A DNA stretch of 64,000 nucleotides from Promethearchaeota archaeon (GTDB lineage: Archaea > Asgardarchaeota > Lokiarchaeia > Sigyniarchaeales > SOKP01). The stretch spans positions 32,488 through 96,487 of the forward strand of contig JAEOTA010000043.1 in NCBI GenBank assembly GCA_016840085.1, written 5' to 3'. Positions within the stretch are counted from its first letter, which is position 1, and each line of letters begins with the position of its first letter. Shown here piece after piece: positions 2,627-41,752 of the stretch. The position numbers and the translations under genes are program-made. The notes beneath the pieces were generated by a model. The model ran no database searches. It was not told the DNA's origin and worked only from the letters and a program-made list of their open reading frames with translations.

Positions 2627-3958
2627 TTAAAAATCAATGGTTCTACCATCCCAAGCATATTCAAATATTCTTTTTATAATTTCGCTATCGATATAACGAG
2701 CAACCATGAAAGCTACTGGATCGGTTTCAGCATACTTCACTAGCAGATCTAAATTTTTAAAGTACTCTTTCTCAGTAATAACAGGATTCTTCATTTCTTT
2801 TACGCATACTGGACCATCTAATGAATGTATGAAATCTTTAATAATTTGAAGAAATTCAATAGATAACTTATTATTGTCTTTATCTTTAGTATCAATTCCA
2901 AAAAGTGGACATAAATCTTTCCACCTTTCTGAAATTTTCATTTGGAAAGCAATACTATACTGAAGAAACATCCCAACACAAAGTCCATGATGAACATTGA
3001 GTACTTTCCCTAAACTATGGCCTAAGGCATGATCAATTCCAACACGAGAATGAATAAATCCAAGTCCTGCCATCAGTGCTGCTATTTGCATTCGTGATCG
3101 TGCTTCTATATCTTTAGCTCCATATTTATATGCACGAGGTAAATACTTCACTATTTGTTTAATAGCATAGGTATTCATGGCATCGGAAAATGGAGTTCCT
3201 ATAGTCGATACATAAGATCCTACTGCATGAGCTAATGCGTCAAGTCCTGTAGCCATTGTTAAAAAAGGCGGCATATCTTTTACAAAATCAGTAATTAATA
3301 TTGCAAAATCAGGAATCAACTCTGGATGAGAGACAGTAAATTTTTTCGGCGGATTAAAACGTGTATCAGTTAACATCGAAGCGAGAGTAGCTTCAGATCC
3401 AGTTCCAGATGTTGTCGGAATAGCAATAAAATATTTAAGTTTTTTGCGTAAACCAAGAGGTTCTAAAGCTGCAACATTAAATAGATCCATTTCAGGTCTC
3501 TCGTATCTAACCATTAAACCTTTCGTACTGTCAAGTACACTCCCTCCACCAATCGCTATAAATATTTTAGGTTTAAAATCTTCACATATTTTAAATGCTT
3601 CATCAATAGTAGCGAAAGGTCCCTCTGGCTTCACTCCAGCCCATACTTTTGACTCTATATTTATTTTATTTAACATATTACTAATTTGATTACCATATTT
3701 TTCAGTAAAATCATCTGTTATTATTAAAGCTCTTCTCTCTCCTTCTTCAAGATTACCATTTAAATAATCGATTAGTCGGTTTAATGCTGTCATTCCAAAT
3801 ATAACCTTTGGTGATCGAAAAGAAGTCAATATTCCTGAAAGTGCTCTCGCTTTCAACATATTCATTAGATTTCTTAAATTCTCATTAATTTGCTGAGTCG
3901 CTGGCTCAGGTACTTGTTCAGACGCTTGTTCAGTTTTATTTTCCAAAAAACCACCCAT
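2627..3958 (-). CDS. Iron-containing alcohol dehydrogenase
   Basis: GGGSVLD, IPTTSGTGSE, GLDALAH, HALGH, HHG motifs. Confidence 0.92.
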   Translation of the reverse strand: MGGFLENKTEQASEQVPEPATQQINENLRNLMNMLKARALSGILTSFRSPKVIFGMTALNRLIDYLNGNLEEGERRALIITDDFTEKYGNQISNMLNKINIESKVWAGVKPEGPFATIDEAFKICEDFKPKIFIAIGGGSVLDSTKGLMVRYERPEMDLFNVAALEPLGLRKKLKYFIAIPTTSGTGSEATLASMLTDTRFNPPKKFTVSHPELIPDFAILITDFVKDMPPFLTMATGLDALAHAVGSYVSTIGTPFSDAMNTYAIKQIVKYLPRAYKYGAKDIEARSRMQIAALMAGLGFIHSRVGIDHALGHSLGKVLNVHHGLCVGMFLQYSIAFQMKISERWKDLCPLFGIDTKDKDNNKLSIEFLQIIKDFIHSLDGPVCVKEMKNPVITEKEYFKNLDLLVKYAETDPVAFMVARYIDSEIIKRIFEYAWDGRTIDF

Positions 3959-4120
3959 TTATATTTTAATATAATTTTTGATAAAATATTATTAAATAAG
4001 TTAAACCTTCTTAATAAATCTTAATTCATTTTAAAGCTGATTATTAAATTGATTATGATTGTGAAGACTAAACCTAGTTTTCTTGAAAATAATTAAGACA
4101 TAATTAATTCTGGATTAAAA

Positions 4121-4183
4121 GATGCGATGGAGCTTATTATGGAAGATATGCAAAAGGCACAGAATAAAATAATCTTATCACTG
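4121..4183 (+). pseudogene. Relic copy of the 3' end of the GH57 gene
   Basis: Translates DAMELIMEDMQKAQNKIILSL vs DAMELIMKDMLKAQNKIVLSL at 566-628; 50/63 nt and 18/21 aa identical by manual alignment. Confidence 0.85.
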
Positions 4184-4250
4184 GAATTAATTGTATTTCT
4201 AATTCTAGTATCAATAAAATTAAAAAAATAAGATTAAAAATAATCAAGAT

Positions 4251-4450
4251 TTAATCCTTTTTGAAAATATTACCACACCCGCCACACTTCACATTCTTAG
4301 CATATACCGGAGTACCCTGCTTCAGCAGCATGCTTAAATAGCATTACTTATACTATAGTAAAGTACATTGCTTTTATCGGGCTCCTCATGAAGCTTACGT
4401 GGGTTCTCATTGCCACACTTAGGACATTTAACCCTTTTATACTCAGTCAC
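4251..4450 (-). CDS. Small C4 zinc-finger protein (56 aa), split: exon1 4450-4350, exon2 4320-4251
   Basis: GTG start preceded by GGGG RBS. Joined product MTEYKRVKCPKCGNENPRKLHEEPDKSNVLYYSMQGTPVYAKNVKCGGCGNIFKKD has one CxxCG in each exon. Not in the ORF track. Confidence 0.8.
4321..4349 (-). other. Candidate 29-nt bulge-helix-bulge/loop (BHB/BHL) mRNA intron
   Basis: AAGUAAUGCUAUUUAAGCAUGCUGCUGAA; contains an in-frame UAA. 4-bp helix UAGU/GCUG, bulges AU|A and AA|G, intron hairpin, exon-exon stem GUACUUU/AGGGUAC. Confidence 0.65.
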
Positions 4451-4512
4451 TTTATTCCCCTTAACTCTAAAATAAGATTTTTACATATTTAGTGGGTTTT
4501 ATAAATTTAAAT

Positions 4513-5043
4513 TTAGGTTTTTACTTGGGTTTTTATTATAATCTCTCTCACAATATCATTTATTTTCTTGTTAGTTGTGTCAATAATAATCTCTGCTGCT
4601 GCTTCGTAAGATGGATTTCGAAAATTTAATACTTTTTCAATTTCTATTTTGGGATCTTGTGTATTAATAACAGGTCTAGACTCTTTTCCATCCATCATTA
4701 TTCTTTTATATATTTCTTCTGGTGTCGATTTTAGAAGGACTATAATAAAATTCTCCTTCAAATTATCAATGTTAATTTTATTTAAAACAACTCCACCCCC
4801 ACATGAAATAACGGTTCTTTTTAGCTTAGATGCTTTTATACATGCTAAATTTTCATATTCTCTAAATTTTTGTTCTCCTTCTTCCTTAAAAATTCTTGGA
4901 ATGGATTTACCCGTTTCTTTAACTATAATTTCGTCAGTCTCAATAAATTTATAATCATTTCCAAGCTGTTTAACTATTGCTTTTCCAATAGTTGTTTTTC
5001 CTGTAGCCATAAAACCTATAAGCGCAATAGAATCCTTACTCAT
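4513..5043 (-). CDS. aroK: Shikimate kinase (bacterial-type)
   Basis: GFMATGKTT P-loop, GEQKFRE, SCGGGVV, RP motif; close to aroE. Confidence 0.92.
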   Translation of the reverse strand: MSKDSIALIGFMATGKTTIGKAIVKQLGNDYKFIETDEIIVKETGKSIPRIFKEEGEQKFREYENLACIKASKLKRTVISCGGGVVLNKINIDNLKENFIIVLLKSTPEEIYKRIMMDGKESRPVINTQDPKIEIEKVLNFRNPSYEAAAEIIIDTTNKKINDIVREIIIKTQVKT

Positions 5044-12390: not shown

Positions 12391-12891
12391 ATGATTGATA
12401 TAATTGGAGGTTTCGTTTATATTTTGGGAGATAATATTACTACTGATGATATTGTCCCCAGTGATGTCTTAACATTAAGAGATACAAATGATATGGCTAA
12501 AAGTACTCTAAAATACATTGATCAGTACTTTGTACAAAATATTAACAGAGGAAATATTATTGTAGCAGGAGAAAATTTTGGATCAGGCAGTTCTCGGGAA
12601 GAAGCTGTTAATGTATTTAAAATTTTAGGAGTAAAAGCAATTATAGCTAAATCTTTTGCTCGAATTTATTTTAGAAATCTGATTAATTTAGGTATTCCGG
12701 GTATTCAATTAAAATGGGAAGATATTCATTTTTCAAAAGAAGATGATCTAGAGATTTCACTTGATCAAGGAATAATTTTTAATAAAAGTAAAAATCTAAA
12801 GATTCAATTTGAAAAATTGCCAACTTTTTTAACAGAAATATTAGAAGAAGGAGGAATTTTAAACCGATTAAAGAGGAATTTAAAGAAGTAA
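12391..12891 (+). CDS. leuD: 3-isopropylmalate dehydratase/homoaconitase family small subunit
   Basis: GDNITTD.I.P, NFGSGSSRE, SFARIYFRN; abuts the large subunit. Confidence 0.88.
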   Translation: MIDIIGGFVYILGDNITTDDIVPSDVLTLRDTNDMAKSTLKYIDQYFVQNINRGNIIVAGENFGSGSSREEAVNVFKILGVKAIIAKSFARIYFRNLINLGIPGIQLKWEDIHFSKEDDLEISLDQGIIFNKSKNLKIQFEKLPTFLTEILEEGGILNRLKRNLKK

Positions 12892-15499: not shown

Positions 15500-16834
15500 A
15501 TGACGCACTTAAATCCCAATTCTGAATTTAGAACAGAGTATATTTATTTGAATACGAAACAAGTTCGAGTTCTCATAAACAGATTAAAGTGTAAAAAGGA
15601 GATGACGCAAAAAGCAATTAGCGAGAAGATTGGGTCAAGTATTGGGAGTGTGTTAGCAAGGGGATCAGCACTCAAATACGAAAGTTATCAAAAATTAAGT
15701 GAATTGGCTAGAAAGGTAAATTTAACGGTTGACATAACGCAAAGGAAATATGTTTATAATCATTCTATCGCATCACTGCAAAAATTAGCGAAAGAGATTG
15801 GGCTAAAGAAAACGGGAGTAGCGGGGAAATTCTTGTCAAAAAAGTATAGAGGGATGAATACATCACATAAATGGCAATGTGGGAGATGCGGAAAAATCTG
15901 GAATACATCCCCTAATAGCATCATGTATCAAGAAAGTTGGTGTACAAGGTGTTCAGGGCGGGAAACATGGACATATGAACAGATGGTAGAATTAGCAAGA
16001 GTGGGTGGTATAGAAAAGACAGGAGTAGCGGGTAAATTTTTAATGAGTAAAAGGGAATATGAACAGCAAACATATCCAGATAGAAGTAAATATCAATGGG
16101 AGTGCGGGAAGTGCGGACATAGGTGGGAATCAAGTGCAAATAACATAAAGCGGGGGTCATGGTGTAGAGAATGTCAATATACTCATCTTTCACGCACATT
16201 AAGGACGCCATATCATGAAATAGTAAAATTGGCAGAAAAAGTCGGGATTATGAAAACAGGGTATGCGGGTGTATTCTTTGCGAGTAAAGAAGAATATCAA
16301 AAAGTTCAAACTCCCAGCCATCATAAATTTATGTGGCAATGCGGAAAATGTCATGAGGTTTTTGAGATGGATATAACCCACGTTAGTCGACCGCAGTGGT
16401 GTCCAAGTTGTACTGAAGGAGAAAGCGAAGAAGTGTGTCGAGGGTTCTTTGAACATATTTTTAAGGCAAAATTTCAAAAAGGGCATCCAGAATGGCTTGT
16501 TAACCCTTTTAGTGGAGGAAAGATGCACCTTGATGGCTATAACAAAAGATTAAAATTAGCATTCGAGTTTAACGGTCCGCAACATTATAAAATGTATCCA
16601 AAATATCATAAGAAGTATCAAGATTTTGTGAAACAACAGGAGCGGGATCTGTTCAAAGCGACACTATGTAAGGAAAAGGACATTAATTTAATTGTAGTTC
16701 CCTATTGGTTTGATTATGATGAATTTCAGGAACATATTATAGAAGAATATGCGAAATTAACTGGGAATGTACTAAAAAAAATTCCTAAGTATGATTGGAG
16801 TAAATTTAAGAGACAAAATTCTAGTTTAAAATAA
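15500..16834 (+). CDS. HTH + three zinc-ribbon repeats + PD-(D/E)XK endonuclease domain
   Basis: MTQKAISEKIG HTH; three G.KKTG.AG.F...W.CG.C...WC..C repeats; GE.E.CR..FE, LDGYN..LKLAFEFNGPQHY, RD..K..C. Confidence 0.75.
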   Translation: MTHLNPNSEFRTEYIYLNTKQVRVLINRLKCKKEMTQKAISEKIGSSIGSVLARGSALKYESYQKLSELARKVNLTVDITQRKYVYNHSIASLQKLAKEIGLKKTGVAGKFLSKKYRGMNTSHKWQCGRCGKIWNTSPNSIMYQESWCTRCSGRETWTYEQMVELARVGGIEKTGVAGKFLMSKREYEQQTYPDRSKYQWECGKCGHRWESSANNIKRGSWCRECQYTHLSRTLRTPYHEIVKLAEKVGIMKTGYAGVFFASKEEYQKVQTPSHHKFMWQCGKCHEVFEMDITHVSRPQWCPSCTEGESEEVCRGFFEHIFKAKFQKGHPEWLVNPFSGGKMHLDGYNKRLKLAFEFNGPQHYKMYPKYHKKYQDFVKQQERDLFKATLCKEKDINLIVVPYWFDYDEFQEHIIEEYAKLTGNVLKKIPKYDWSKFKRQNSSLK

Positions 16835-39427: not shown

Positions 39428-40300
39428 TTGAAATTTAAAGATGCTATTGAAATACTTCGCCCTATTAATGATTTAATGGGAAGTTTAACAGTTATTATAG
39501 GCATTTTAAATACAAGATCAGGCATTTCTGTAGAAAATTTAATAATTAATTTCATATTCGGAATTTTAACGTACTTCTTTATTGCTGGATCTGGAATGGT
39601 TATAAATGATATTTATGATATTGAAATTGATAAAATAAATAGACCAGAGAGACCAATTCCACGAGGCGCTATAACACTTAAGCACGCTAAATATTTATTT
39701 GCAGTTGTATTAAGCATTGGACTTGTTTTATCAATTATACACAGCTTTATTCTTAGTCTTAATTTTCTTAATGTAATAATCGCAGCAATTTTTGGTTTTA
39801 TGGGATGGTTATACGCAAAATGGGGTAAAAAAAGTGGGTTCTTTGGAAATATTATTGTAAGTATATCCTTTTCAATAGGTTTAATTTATGGAGCTATTTT
39901 AAATGGTTTTGAAATCCCTATTTATATTTATTATTTCTTTTTAACTTGCTTTTTCCTTCTGTTATCTCGCGAAATTATTAAAGGATGCGAAGATATTGAA
40001 GGAGATAAAAAGCAAGGAGTGAAAACATTGGCTATTCAGATAGGTATAAAGAAATCTGCTTATACTTCTATGATATTCGCAATTCTAGCTATAGTTTTCT
40101 TTATTCTACCGATTTTCACTAATATAATAAATATATTTCTATATTCAATTTCAATGGTTTTCGGTATAATAGTCGTACTTTATGCAGTAATTTTAACTTT
40201 TAAAAGCAATTTGAAAAAAGAGAGTTTTTCTAAAATAAGTTTATTACTAAAAACTGGGGCATTTCTAGGCTTGATTACTTTTATTTTCGCAAGCATTTAA
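39428..40300 (+). CDS. Digeranylgeranylglyceryl phosphate synthase (UbiA family)
   Basis: RP.N, NDIYDIEIDKINRPERPIPRG, REIIK..EDIEGD..G.KTL. Confidence 0.92.
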   Translation: MKFKDAIEILRPINDLMGSLTVIIGILNTRSGISVENLIINFIFGILTYFFIAGSGMVINDIYDIEIDKINRPERPIPRGAITLKHAKYLFAVVLSIGLVLSIIHSFILSLNFLNVIIAAIFGFMGWLYAKWGKKSGFFGNIIVSISFSIGLIYGAILNGFEIPIYIYYFFLTCFFLLLSREIIKGCEDIEGDKKQGVKTLAIQIGIKKSAYTSMIFAILAIVFFILPIFTNIINIFLYSISMVFGIIVVLYAVILTFKSNLKKESFSKISLLLKTGAFLGLITFIFASI

Positions 40301-40321
40301 TTAAATTTTGTTTTAAATCCC

Positions 40322-41752
40322 CTAATTTTGATACTCTTTTAAAAGTTCCAAAATTTCTTCAACTTTTTTTTCCTTTACGAATTCCTTTAGTTTTTTCTTA
40401 TGTTCTAAATTCATTTCGATAAAAGGTATGGTTTCAATTAATTTTCTTGTTTGTGTAAGACCTAAATACTTTCTTGTATAAATTGCTTCAGAGTATTTAT
40501 ATGTGGTTAAAAATTCACTATCTAGCTTCTTTCTATAAGTTTCTAACATAAAATTAAAATAAATTTTTATTAACTTTTGATCTTTTGGTGAAATCATAGG
40601 TTCGAAAAAGATCTGAATTGGATGAGTTCTATAGGTGTTTCCCGATACATAAATTCCTTTTACATTATAATCATCTTTAATAATCCCTAATCCAACTCTA
40701 CCGTTATAAGAGCCGGTATCTACAGTTCGAACATATAATATGTTAGATTCTACTTTTTGATTTAGAGTATTATCTATTCGAAGATTTAATTTTTTATATT
40801 CATTATTTTGATAATCATTTGCATCAATAACATTTATCTCATTATTTCCCTTATGCTTCATTACTTCCTTTTTTAGTAAATAGTAATTTATCTTTAAGGG
40901 ACTCTTAGCATGATATTCCTTAAGAAACTCATCAAATTCAGAACCAGCACGAAATTTAAATTCTGGTTTTAAAACATAATGTTTTTTGATTAATTGATTT
41001 TGTTTCTTGATTTTTATACCTTCAAATTTTACATTTTCATATTTTGGTAATACTTTCTTTTTAAAAAACCCAATACATATATTTGTTCCTGTATATTCAA
41101 ATATCTTTGTTTCAAATACGATTATTTTATTAATTCTATAAAACTTTAAGAAATCTTTGCGGAATTTATTCGAAACAGATGCGCCAAAAATGAAATTTGA
41201 AGGAATAATATAAATTAAATTCTGAATATTATTTCTCAAATCATTTATCATAGCAATCTGATATAAATCTTGATATCCCTCATTTTTATCCTTGAATAAG
41301 TTTAAATATTTCTGTGTTTCTTTATGTTTTCTAATATAACCTAAATAAAGATAAGGGGGATTTGTAATATGATATAAAGGATATTTTCTGCTCTTCAAAA
41401 AGATAGGAAAACTTTCTAAGTTATCACGTAATTTTATATTATTAGCTGCCACTTTATAAGGTATTCCAAATTTTCCAGCATTATTAATACACTTTTTTAT
41501 CATCTCTGATTGAATATCAGATAAATAAATATGATCTTCAAAAAATCGAACTCGTTTTTCAGGTGAAATTGAATTTAAAATAGGTAAAATTAAATTTCCC
41601 TCACCTGCATATAAATCAATCCATTTAAAACTCCATAATTTATCTTGAATTTCTGGGAAAATATATTTTAAGAAAATATCTTTTGAAGTTAAATGAATAC
41701 CGTATGATCTCCGATAGTTGTTTTCTCTAATTTGGTTTAAATTTTTACTCAT
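40322..41752 (-). CDS. N6-adenine DNA methyltransferase
   Basis: DLYAGEGNL (motif I), ITNPPY (motif IV), DLYQ, IIPSNF. Confidence 0.8.
   Translation of the reverse strand: MSKNLNQIRENNYRRSYGIHLTSKDIFLKYIFPEIQDKLWSFKWIDLYAGEGNLILPILNSISPEKRVRFFEDHIYLSDIQSEMIKKCINNAGKFGIPYKVAANNIKLRDNLESFPIFLKSRKYPLYHITNPPYLYLGYIRKHKETQKYLNLFKDKNEGYQDLYQIAMINDLRNNIQNLIYIIPSNFIFGASVSNKFRKDFLKFYRINKIIVFETKIFEYTGTNICIGFFKKKVLPKYENVKFEGIKIKKQNQLIKKHYVLKPEFKFRAGSEFDEFLKEYHAKSPLKINYYLLKKEVMKHKGNNEINVIDANDYQNNEYKKLNLRIDNTLNQKVESNILYVRTVDTGSYNGRVGLGIIKDDYNVKGIYVSGNTYRTHPIQIFFEPMISPKDQKLIKIYFNFMLETYRKKLDSEFLTTYKYSEAIYTRKYLGLTQTRKLIETIPFIEMNLEHKKKLKEFVKEKKVEEILELLKEYQN

What the first reader, a model, noticed from the sequence alone, without database searches (positions are those of the whole stretch)
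4251..4450. Candidate tRNA-type (BHB/BHL) intron inside an Asgard protein-coding gene
Seen: a minus-strand ORF with RBS starts MTEYKRVKCPKCG...VLYYS and hits a stop, while a second CxxCG half (QGTPVYAKNVKCGGCGNIFKKD*) follows in another frame. Removing 29 nt (4321-4349) fuses AU|G into a clean 56-aa C4 zinc finger. The pre-mRNA folds as: exon stem GUACUUU/AGGGUAC; 4-bp helix UAGU/GCUG; 3-nt bulges AUA and AAG on opposite strands; intron hairpin AGUA(A)UGCU-AUUUA-AGCAUGCU. Cutting after the 2nd nt of each bulge gives exactly this excision. Established: that is the archaeal splicing endonuclease (EndA) rule, with RtcB ligation; archaeal mRNA introns of this kind are known mainly from crenarchaeal cbf5. 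Inference: a spliced, possibly regulated mRNA in a eukaryote-related lineage, conceptually parallel to RtcB-ligated frameshifting XBP1-type introns. Caveats: the exon-side bulge sits in a relaxed internal loop (BHL), and a register shifted by one base pair (bulges UAA/GAA) would excise 27 nt and not restore the frame.
Basis: partly seen in the sequence, partly recalled or inferred. Interest (0 to 1): 0.9.

Follow-up and report, generated by a model that had tools for sequence, protein, structure and literature searches.

The report
tRNA-type intron in Asgard zinc-ribbon gene
A 29-base insert splits a small zinc-binding protein gene of an Asgard archaeon, and comparison with dozens of relatives makes it very likely that it is cut out of the message by the tRNA-splicing enzymes, a process I found published for the coding part of only one other archaeal gene (cbf5).

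Summary
Observation confirmed; the splicing reading is strongly supported by comparative sequence, but no RNA was available. Removing 4321-4349 gives a 56-aa C4 zinc ribbon. Of 30 congener loci (this genome included), 23 carry exactly 29 nt at this site and 7 have no insert there; 32 intact homologues keep S-M-Q-G invariant, the Met the predicted cut creates. The central helix and intron hairpin covary (7 of 11 pairs, 99.6% paired). Exon 2 is under purifying selection (dN/dS about 0.07). No frameshift window is shared, and the 27-nt register is possible in only 10 of 39 loci. The motif is relaxed on the exon side. Relatives carry such introns at three further sites within 24 nt; one resembles a copy of this intron. 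This genome has about a dozen more candidates, two in its only uS3 gene. The EndA catalytic subunit is missing from this assembly, probably a gap; all five congeners checked have it. Regulation and an XBP1-like role are unsupported. This scan found the same class, and this same intron, on other DNA before. I found no paper on Asgard mRNA introns.

The parts
4501..4521 (-). Conserved AT-rich upstream element, probably the gene's own archaeal BRE/TATA promoter; overlaps the aroK stop codon
   Evidence: Near-identical motif upstream in the orthologues, also in one locus with no aroK match (L028); function inferred
4455..4461 (-). Purine-rich putative ribosome-binding site
   Evidence: Sequence; G-rich stretch at a similar place in most orthologues
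4350..4450 (-). Exon 1: 33 codons plus AT of Met34; first CxxC knuckle
   Evidence: dN/dS about 0.09 among 21 intron-bearing orthologues
4360..4366 (-). 5' arm of the outer exon-exon stem (pairs with 4318-4312); separated from the central helix by a 4x4 internal loop
   Evidence: 92.5% paired, one pair with a change on both sides; codon-constrained, so weak evidence
4352..4355 (-). Exon strand of the 4-bp central helix
   Evidence: 100% of cells paired in 23 sequences; one pair with a change on both sides, one with one-sided changes
4349..4351 (-). 5' three-base bulge, predicted cut between 4350 and 4349
   Evidence: First two bases invariant (Met codon); third base varies A/G/T
4321..4349 (-). 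29-nt intron: hairpin 4348-4327, intron strand of the central helix 4326-4323, and two bulge bases 4322-4321; holds a stop in both relevant frames
   Evidence: Exactly 29 nt in 39 loci, 32 distinct sequences; 6 of 7 hairpin pairs with compensatory changes
4320..4322 (-). 3' three-base bulge in a relaxed loop, predicted cut between 4321 and 4320
   Evidence: Last intron base varies A/G/C; first exon-2 base G invariant
4251..4320 (-). Exon 2: G of Met34, 22 codons with the second CxxC, stop
   Evidence: dN/dS about 0.07; both cysteines kept in all 21 orthologues tested
4222..4240 (-). T-rich tract after the stop, probable archaeal terminator
   Evidence: Sequence; T-rich tracts follow the stop in orthologues; inferred
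4513..5043 (-). Upstream shikimate kinase gene (aroK), conserved neighbour
   Evidence: Pfam SKI E 2e-41; present in 29 of 30 loci and in other genera

Best explanation
The insert is a true archaeal (EndA-type) intron in a protein-coding mRNA. The pre-mRNA folds a 4-bp helix between exon 1 and the intron's 3' end, with a clean 3-nt bulge closed by the intron hairpin and a relaxed loop on the exon side. The broad-specificity (alpha-beta)2 splicing endonuclease cuts after the second base of each bulge, and RtcB joins the exons, creating the Met34 codon and restoring the 56-aa four-cysteine zinc ribbon. Shown: the insert, its exact boundaries from intact orthologues, structural covariation, selection on both exons, and RtcB plus one EndA subunit in this genome. 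Inferred: transcription, cleavage, ligation, and which enzymes act. The intron was probably gained once within this genus. It is probably a constitutive, near-neutral passenger and one of about a dozen or more such introns in this genome.
For: Exact 29-nt insert in 23 of 30 congener loci, none in 7. S-M-Q-G invariant in 32 intact proteins. 99.6% of cells paired, 7 of 11 pairs with changes on both sides, 0 of 500 shuffles as high, slid registers 15-51% paired. Intron identity 77% against 52-65% at third codon positions; exon 2 dN/dS about 0.07. Seven further inserts at three other sites of this gene each restore the intact-type protein when cut by the same rule; six have 4 of 4 helix pairs, one has 3 of 4. 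Genome census: 14 frame-restoring 29-33-nt motifs against 2 and 2 in frame-shifted decoys. The only uS3 gene needs two such excisions, and the rule gives the junction read by intact congeners. RtcB present; both EndA subunits in 5 of 5 congeners. [quoted passage not shown]
Against: No RNA evidence for this gene. The catalytic EndA subunit is not in this assembly, though its neighbours, including ATP synthase subunit A, are missing too. The exon-side bulge is relaxed and can pair alternatively. Single-sequence folding is not exceptional. The orthologues are kin, so shuffle controls overstate significance. The census length window was chosen after a first pass.
Confidence: 0.92

Rival explanations
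1. The 29 nt are removed or skipped precisely, but not by EndA and RtcB: another nuclease-ligase pair, excision at DNA level, or ribosomal bypassing.
For: No RNA or enzyme data here; catalytic EndA not found in this assembly; the motif is relaxed.
Against: Helix length, bulge size and cut positions follow the EndA rule at four sites in this gene and at both uS3 sites. Bypassing needs matching take-off and landing codons, which are absent, and could not create a Met codon from AT plus G. Inserts are fixed in many assemblies.
Confidence: 0.04
2. Programmed -1 ribosomal frameshifting within the insert gives a zinc ribbon with about ten extra residues; the hairpin is a stimulatory element.
For: 29 nt puts exon 2 in the -1 frame; both frames are open for 7 nt in this genome; a hairpin is present.
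Against: No window open in both frames is shared: in some orthologues it ends at intron base 4, in another it begins at base 22. No slippery sequence is conserved. The same kind of insert also occurs in frame with a stop codon (30 nt), where frameshifting cannot help.
Confidence: 0.02
3. An inert insertion that pseudogenised the gene, or an assembly error.
For: Small gene of unknown function with several paralogous domains in the genome.
Against: Present in 39 loci with 32 different sequences and a fixed length; both exons under purifying selection; compensatory changes in the insert; gene kept in 121 of 151 genomes of the class.
Confidence: 0.01
4. Add-on to the best explanation: splicing is a regulated switch (XBP1/HAC1-like) and the unspliced message or its 38-aa product has a role.
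For: The intron is kept across most of a genus and is more conserved than synonymous sites; a regulatory role was proposed for the cbf5 intron (PMC2738675).
Against: The unspliced frame stops at intron base 5, 14 or 26 in different orthologues. Close relatives and the other genera do without this intron. Conservation is explained by the need to stay spliceable. Similar introns sit in housekeeping genes such as uS3 and EF-2.
Confidence: 0.12

Closest known systems
cbf5 pre-mRNA intron of Crenarchaeota (Watanabe 2002; Yoshinari 2006; Yokobori 2009, PMC2738675)
   Same: Short intron inside a coding sequence, splitting a codon; relaxed bulge-helix-bulge; cuts between the second and third bulge bases; patchy presence among relatives; hetero-oligomeric EndA.
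   Different: Different phylum and gene; cbf5 splicing is confirmed by cDNA and cleavage, this one is not. Here there are four intron positions within 24 nt of one gene across relatives, and about a dozen further candidate genes in one genome, rather than one gene.
Haloferax volcanii HVO_1309 5' UTR intron (PMC7714728; PMC10485636)
   Same: mRNA substrate of the splicing endonuclease; short BHB intron.
   Different: In the 5' UTR, does not interrupt a reading frame; alpha2-type enzyme.
Non-canonical tRNA introns of Asgard archaea and Thermoproteales (bioRxiv 10.64898/2026.10.13.758758; Fujishima 2010 as cited there)
   Same: Same motif and size class, repeated independent gains, same enzyme.
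   Different: Those are in tRNA genes; 'mRNA' and 'cbf5' have no occurrences in that preprint's text. It found almost no copying of introns between Asgard tRNA genes, whereas one relative here has a second intron that resembles a copy of the first.
XBP1/HAC1 unconventional splicing (own knowledge)
   Same: Short frame-shifting intron; RtcB ligation in animals.
   Different: Cut by IRE1 at two separate stem-loops, stress-regulated, with a functional unspliced form; none of these features is seen here.

Membership tests
Archaeal EndA-spliced (BHB-type) intron | 4-bp central helix between exon and intron | tested here: met
   100% paired in 23 sequences, with one compensatory pair
Archaeal EndA-spliced (BHB-type) intron | 3-nt bulge at the 5' splice site closed by an intron helix | tested here: met
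   Hairpin 99.4% paired, 6 of 7 pairs with changes on both sides
Canonical hBHBh' motif | Exon helix directly closing the 3' bulge | tested here: not met
   A-C mismatch next to the bulge; the exon stem begins after a 4x4 loop. Fits the relaxed class described in PMC5829648
Archaeal EndA-spliced (BHB-type) intron | Boundaries after the second base of each bulge | tested here: met
   This excision gives the S-M-Q-G invariant in 32 intact homologues; the 27-nt register is possible in only 10 of 39 loci
Archaeal EndA-spliced (BHB-type) intron | Host encodes a broad-specificity EndA and RtcB | tested here: inconclusive
   RtcB and the subunit lacking the catalytic His are present; the catalytic subunit is absent from this assembly along with its neighbours; both subunits in 5 of 5 congeners, 4 of which carry the intron
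Archaeal EndA-spliced (BHB-type) intron | Spliced mRNA and excised (circular) intron exist in cells | not testable with these tools
Archaeal EndA-spliced (BHB-type) intron | Cleavage by EndA in vitro | not testable with these tools
   Bench experiment
XBP1/HAC1-type regulated intron | Two separate IRE1-type stem-loops and a conserved unspliced product | tested here: not met
   One nested helix-bulge fold; the unspliced stop position varies
Named zinc-ribbon protein families (Pfam) | Score above a curated family cut-off | tested here: inconclusive
   Many weak zinc-ribbon hits, none above cut-off; best structural Z 3.4

The most novel reading that the evidence does not exclude
Promethearchaeota mRNAs carry an actively spreading population of about 30-nt EndA-spliced introns that encode no protein. 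New ones can arise by copying an existing intron into a matching exon site, as the second intron of genome G016 suggests: it lies 17 nt downstream of the first, behind the same CAGTAT, and has the same helix. That would give a route of intron gain and a spliceosome-free, intron-bearing transcriptome in the prokaryotes closest to eukaryotes.
Probability: 0.35. Interest if true: 0.92.

Novelty: new variant of a known kind. Interest (0 to 1): 0.78.

Why it matters
In the papers I could search, EndA splicing within an archaeal coding sequence is confirmed only for cbf5, plus one 5' UTR case; introns in other genes were only predicted (PMC2738675, PMC10485636). If this intron and the others in the genome are real, mRNA splicing is routine in an Asgard lineage and reaches a core ribosomal protein (uS3). 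Gene callers then truncate or miss such genes: databases hold 42-aa unspliced stubs of this protein. The gene is a compact test substrate: natural alleles with none, one or two introns, and 17- and 24-nt middle exons. It also bears on how these introns arrive, which a 2026 preprint calls the central open problem.

Tried and rejected
RNA evidence: the run search for window 4100-4700 listed no RNA holder, so no reads could be laid; this is no evidence either way. Rfam: no family matched 3900-4700. Single-sequence folding was not informative. First census run had a constraint-length bug and was redone; the strict version missed this gene itself because small Cys-rich exons score low on the coding model. 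Wider spread of this intron family: a covariance model of helix plus intron found, in five genomes, only the orthologous site and the second intron of G016 (E 7e-4), so genome-wide transposition of this family is not supported. Protein function: Pfam, Foldseek, VIA-align and ESM Atlas gave only generic zinc-ribbon resemblance; database labels such as 'S27AE' were not accepted. Trees need two changes at face value but are too weakly resolved to separate one gain from a gain plus loss. The bacterial promoter scan was at chance level. Nine literature searches found no paper on Asgard mRNA introns; subscription journals are mostly not covered, and Marck and Grosjean 2003 was not held.

Full report
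Observation. The minus strand has a GTG start at 4450 behind a purine-rich stretch. The first frame encodes one CxxC knuckle and stops after 38 codons; a second knuckle lies in another frame and ends at 4251. Removing 4349..4321 joins AT to G and yields 56 codons. The helix, bulges, hairpin and outer stem are at the places described. On its own the fold is not remarkable: z = -0.79 for 81 nt, with a different minimum-energy structure. For a 66-nt stretch the proposed helix, 5' bulge and hairpin are the best fold, but the 3' bulge is partly paired with exon 1.

Origin and protein. Homologues named in databases are Promethearchaeota (Lokiarchaeota) proteins of about 56 residues. The gene is found in 121 of 151 genomes of the class, downstream of shikimate kinase in 29 of 30 congener loci. 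A conserved AT-rich element upstream is probably its own promoter (inferred). The model is a long beta-hairpin (pLDDT 83), consistent with a C4 zinc ribbon. No family cut-off or specific structural match was reached, so the function is unassigned; nucleic-acid or protein binding is the generic expectation for such ribbons.

Boundaries. Among 30 congener loci (this genome included), 23 have exactly 29 nt between AT and G and 7 have nothing at this site. With metagenome contigs the count is 39 and 14, with 32 distinct insert sequences (some loci may be the same species). In 32 intact proteins S-M-Q-G is invariant, which is the junction the EndA rule predicts. In the class-wide search, 33 genomes have a match that breaks at residue 34-36, all in this genus; other genera are not split here. 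Four of those inspected further carry the same insert. Trees cluster the intron-bearing loci and do not rule out a single gain, but support is weak.

Structure across orthologues. For the central helix plus intron hairpin, 99.6% of cells pair, 7 of 11 pairs show changes on both sides, none of 500 shuffles reaches this, and slid registers give 15-51%. Kinship inflates the shuffle test, but the compensations recur in several lineages and include the exon-intron helix. The insert is more conserved (77%) than third codon positions of the exons (52-65%). The exon-side helix does not abut the 3' bulge, so the motif is relaxed, not canonical.

Rivals. Exon 2 has dN/dS about 0.07 and exon 1 about 0.09 in 21 intron-bearing genes, so this is not a pseudogene. 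A programmed frameshift would need a window open in both frames; across orthologues these windows do not overlap. The unspliced frame ends at intron base 5, 14 or 26, so no conserved alternative product supports an XBP1-like switch.

More introns in the same gene. Relatives carry inserts of 30-32 nt at three other sites, 17, 21 and 24 nt downstream of this one. All seven examined have the helix, two bulges and a hairpin, and restore the intact-type protein when cut by the same rule; six have four helix pairs, one has three. Two occur in another genus. Two GTDB genomes (G016, G017) have two introns, leaving 17- and 24-nt middle exons. The second intron of G016 follows the same CAGTAT as the first and matches the first intron at 24 aligned bases; none of 5000 shuffles scored as well, and a model of the first intron finds it at E 7e-4. 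This suggests local copying. It is a single case, and a local DNA duplication cannot be told from an RNA-level route.

Genome context. A scan of the whole assembly for the motif at broken reading frames gave 14 loci of 29-33 nt that restore a frame, against 2 and 2 when the excision was lengthened by one or two bases; other lengths gave 4, 4 and 10 (length window chosen). The true frame led at all 12 threshold settings. Candidates include EF-2 (two), AMP phosphorylase, a small GTPase and a putative acetyl-CoA synthase subunit (names other than EF-2 from motifs I recognised, not searched). The only uS3 gene found has two inserts. Excision by the rule gives VIGKGG and GLEMPQ, as read by 25 of 25 and 20 of 25 intact congeners (two more read DLEMPQ). 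The second uS3 helix is weak here (two of four pairs). The second EF-2 insert aligns as a 10-residue gap against a yeast EF-2.

Machinery. RtcB is present. The one EndA homologue in this assembly lacks the catalytic His by my reading of the triad and matches the congeners' second subunit. The catalytic subunit is absent, but so are its neighbours, including ATP synthase subunit A, which points to an assembly gap. Five of five congeners have both subunits. Asgard EndA is reported as (alpha-beta)2 with the L1 loop, a type able to cleave relaxed motifs (PMC5829648).

Literature. cbf5 is the confirmed coding-region case, with relaxed motifs and cuts after the second bulge base; introns in other genes were predicted but unconfirmed (PMC2738675). 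A Haloferax 5' UTR intron is the second mRNA case (PMC7714728, PMC10485636). A 2026 preprint on Asgard introns treats tRNA only, reports no demonstrated splicing of its newly found introns, and leaves the route of arrival open. My searches found no paper on Asgard mRNA introns; coverage excludes most subscription journals. Earlier notes of this scan report the same class in many Asgard genomes, this same intron in others, and RNA-level joins for other genes. I did not check those RNA claims and do not count them as support.

Verdict. A real, conserved, structured intron, most likely removed by EndA and RtcB (0.92). It works like the cbf5 intron and meets the sequence-testable features of the relaxed class; the enzyme and RNA features are open. 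It is a new variant of a known kind: the chemistry is known, while the lineage, the number of genes, the four-site hotspot and the apparent intron copy are not in the papers I could search. Interest 0.78.

Noticed in passing
L022 (G016:C20, about 12487-12570, minus strand): Two introns 17 nt apart; the 31-nt second one resembles a copy of the first and sits behind an identical CAGTAT. Possible trace of intron gain by local copying.
   Followed up: partly
L003 (G017), L056/L057, L030 (G029), L038, L145 (G074), L146 (G141): Further 30-32-nt BHB-type inserts at two more sites in exon 2 of the same gene, some in another genus; in L038 and L056 the central helix is palindromic, so the insert ends repeat the exon end.
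   Followed up: yes
L082 (G000:C85:142161-142191 and about 60 nt downstream): The only uS3 gene has a 31-nt and a 30-nt insert; two congeners have both, two have only the second, and most have none.
   Followed up: yes
L083 (G000:C4:16273-16302 and 16144-16173, minus strand): EF-2 gene with two 30-nt stop-containing inserts in the GTPase motifs; no second EF-2 copy was found in the assembly by tblastn.
   Followed up: partly
G000:C9:138211-138240; C24:30582-30611; C4:202483-202512; C6:13999-14028: 30-nt candidate introns in genes that look like AMP phosphorylase, a small Ras-like GTPase, an acetyl-CoA synthase subunit and an acyl-CoA ligase; not checked against orthologues.
   Followed up: partly
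L031 (G000:C79:3618-4223); congeners L071-L075: This assembly has only the EndA subunit lacking the catalytic His; the catalytic gene and its neighbours (ATP synthase subunit A and a 300-aa gene) are absent although completeness is listed as 98.8%.
   Followed up: yes
G000:C36, C76, C70, C4, C75, C9 and others: At least eight paralogous zinc-ribbon domains of the same type; the C36 match lies in a 338-codon frame and the C76 match in a 69-codon frame. An expanded, unnamed family.
   Followed up: no
L094 (G021:C12, about 40077-40727): Besides its split uS3, G021 shows a second partial match to the uS3 N-terminus about 400 nt away with a stop inside; unexplained.
   Followed up: no
window:7548-8956: Three tandem 127-131-aa genes with CxxC, a hydrophobic stretch, CxxC and a second zinc ribbon.
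   Followed up: no
window:705-3958: Aldehyde:ferredoxin-oxidoreductase-like and iron alcohol dehydrogenase genes downstream of this gene; the ADH neighbour is seen in only 4 of 30 congener loci.
   Followed up: no
Database proteins P0039, P0042-P0045: 42-aa entries are the unspliced stubs of this gene; P0032, P0041 and P0046 look like further alleles with inserts in exon 2.
   Followed up: partly
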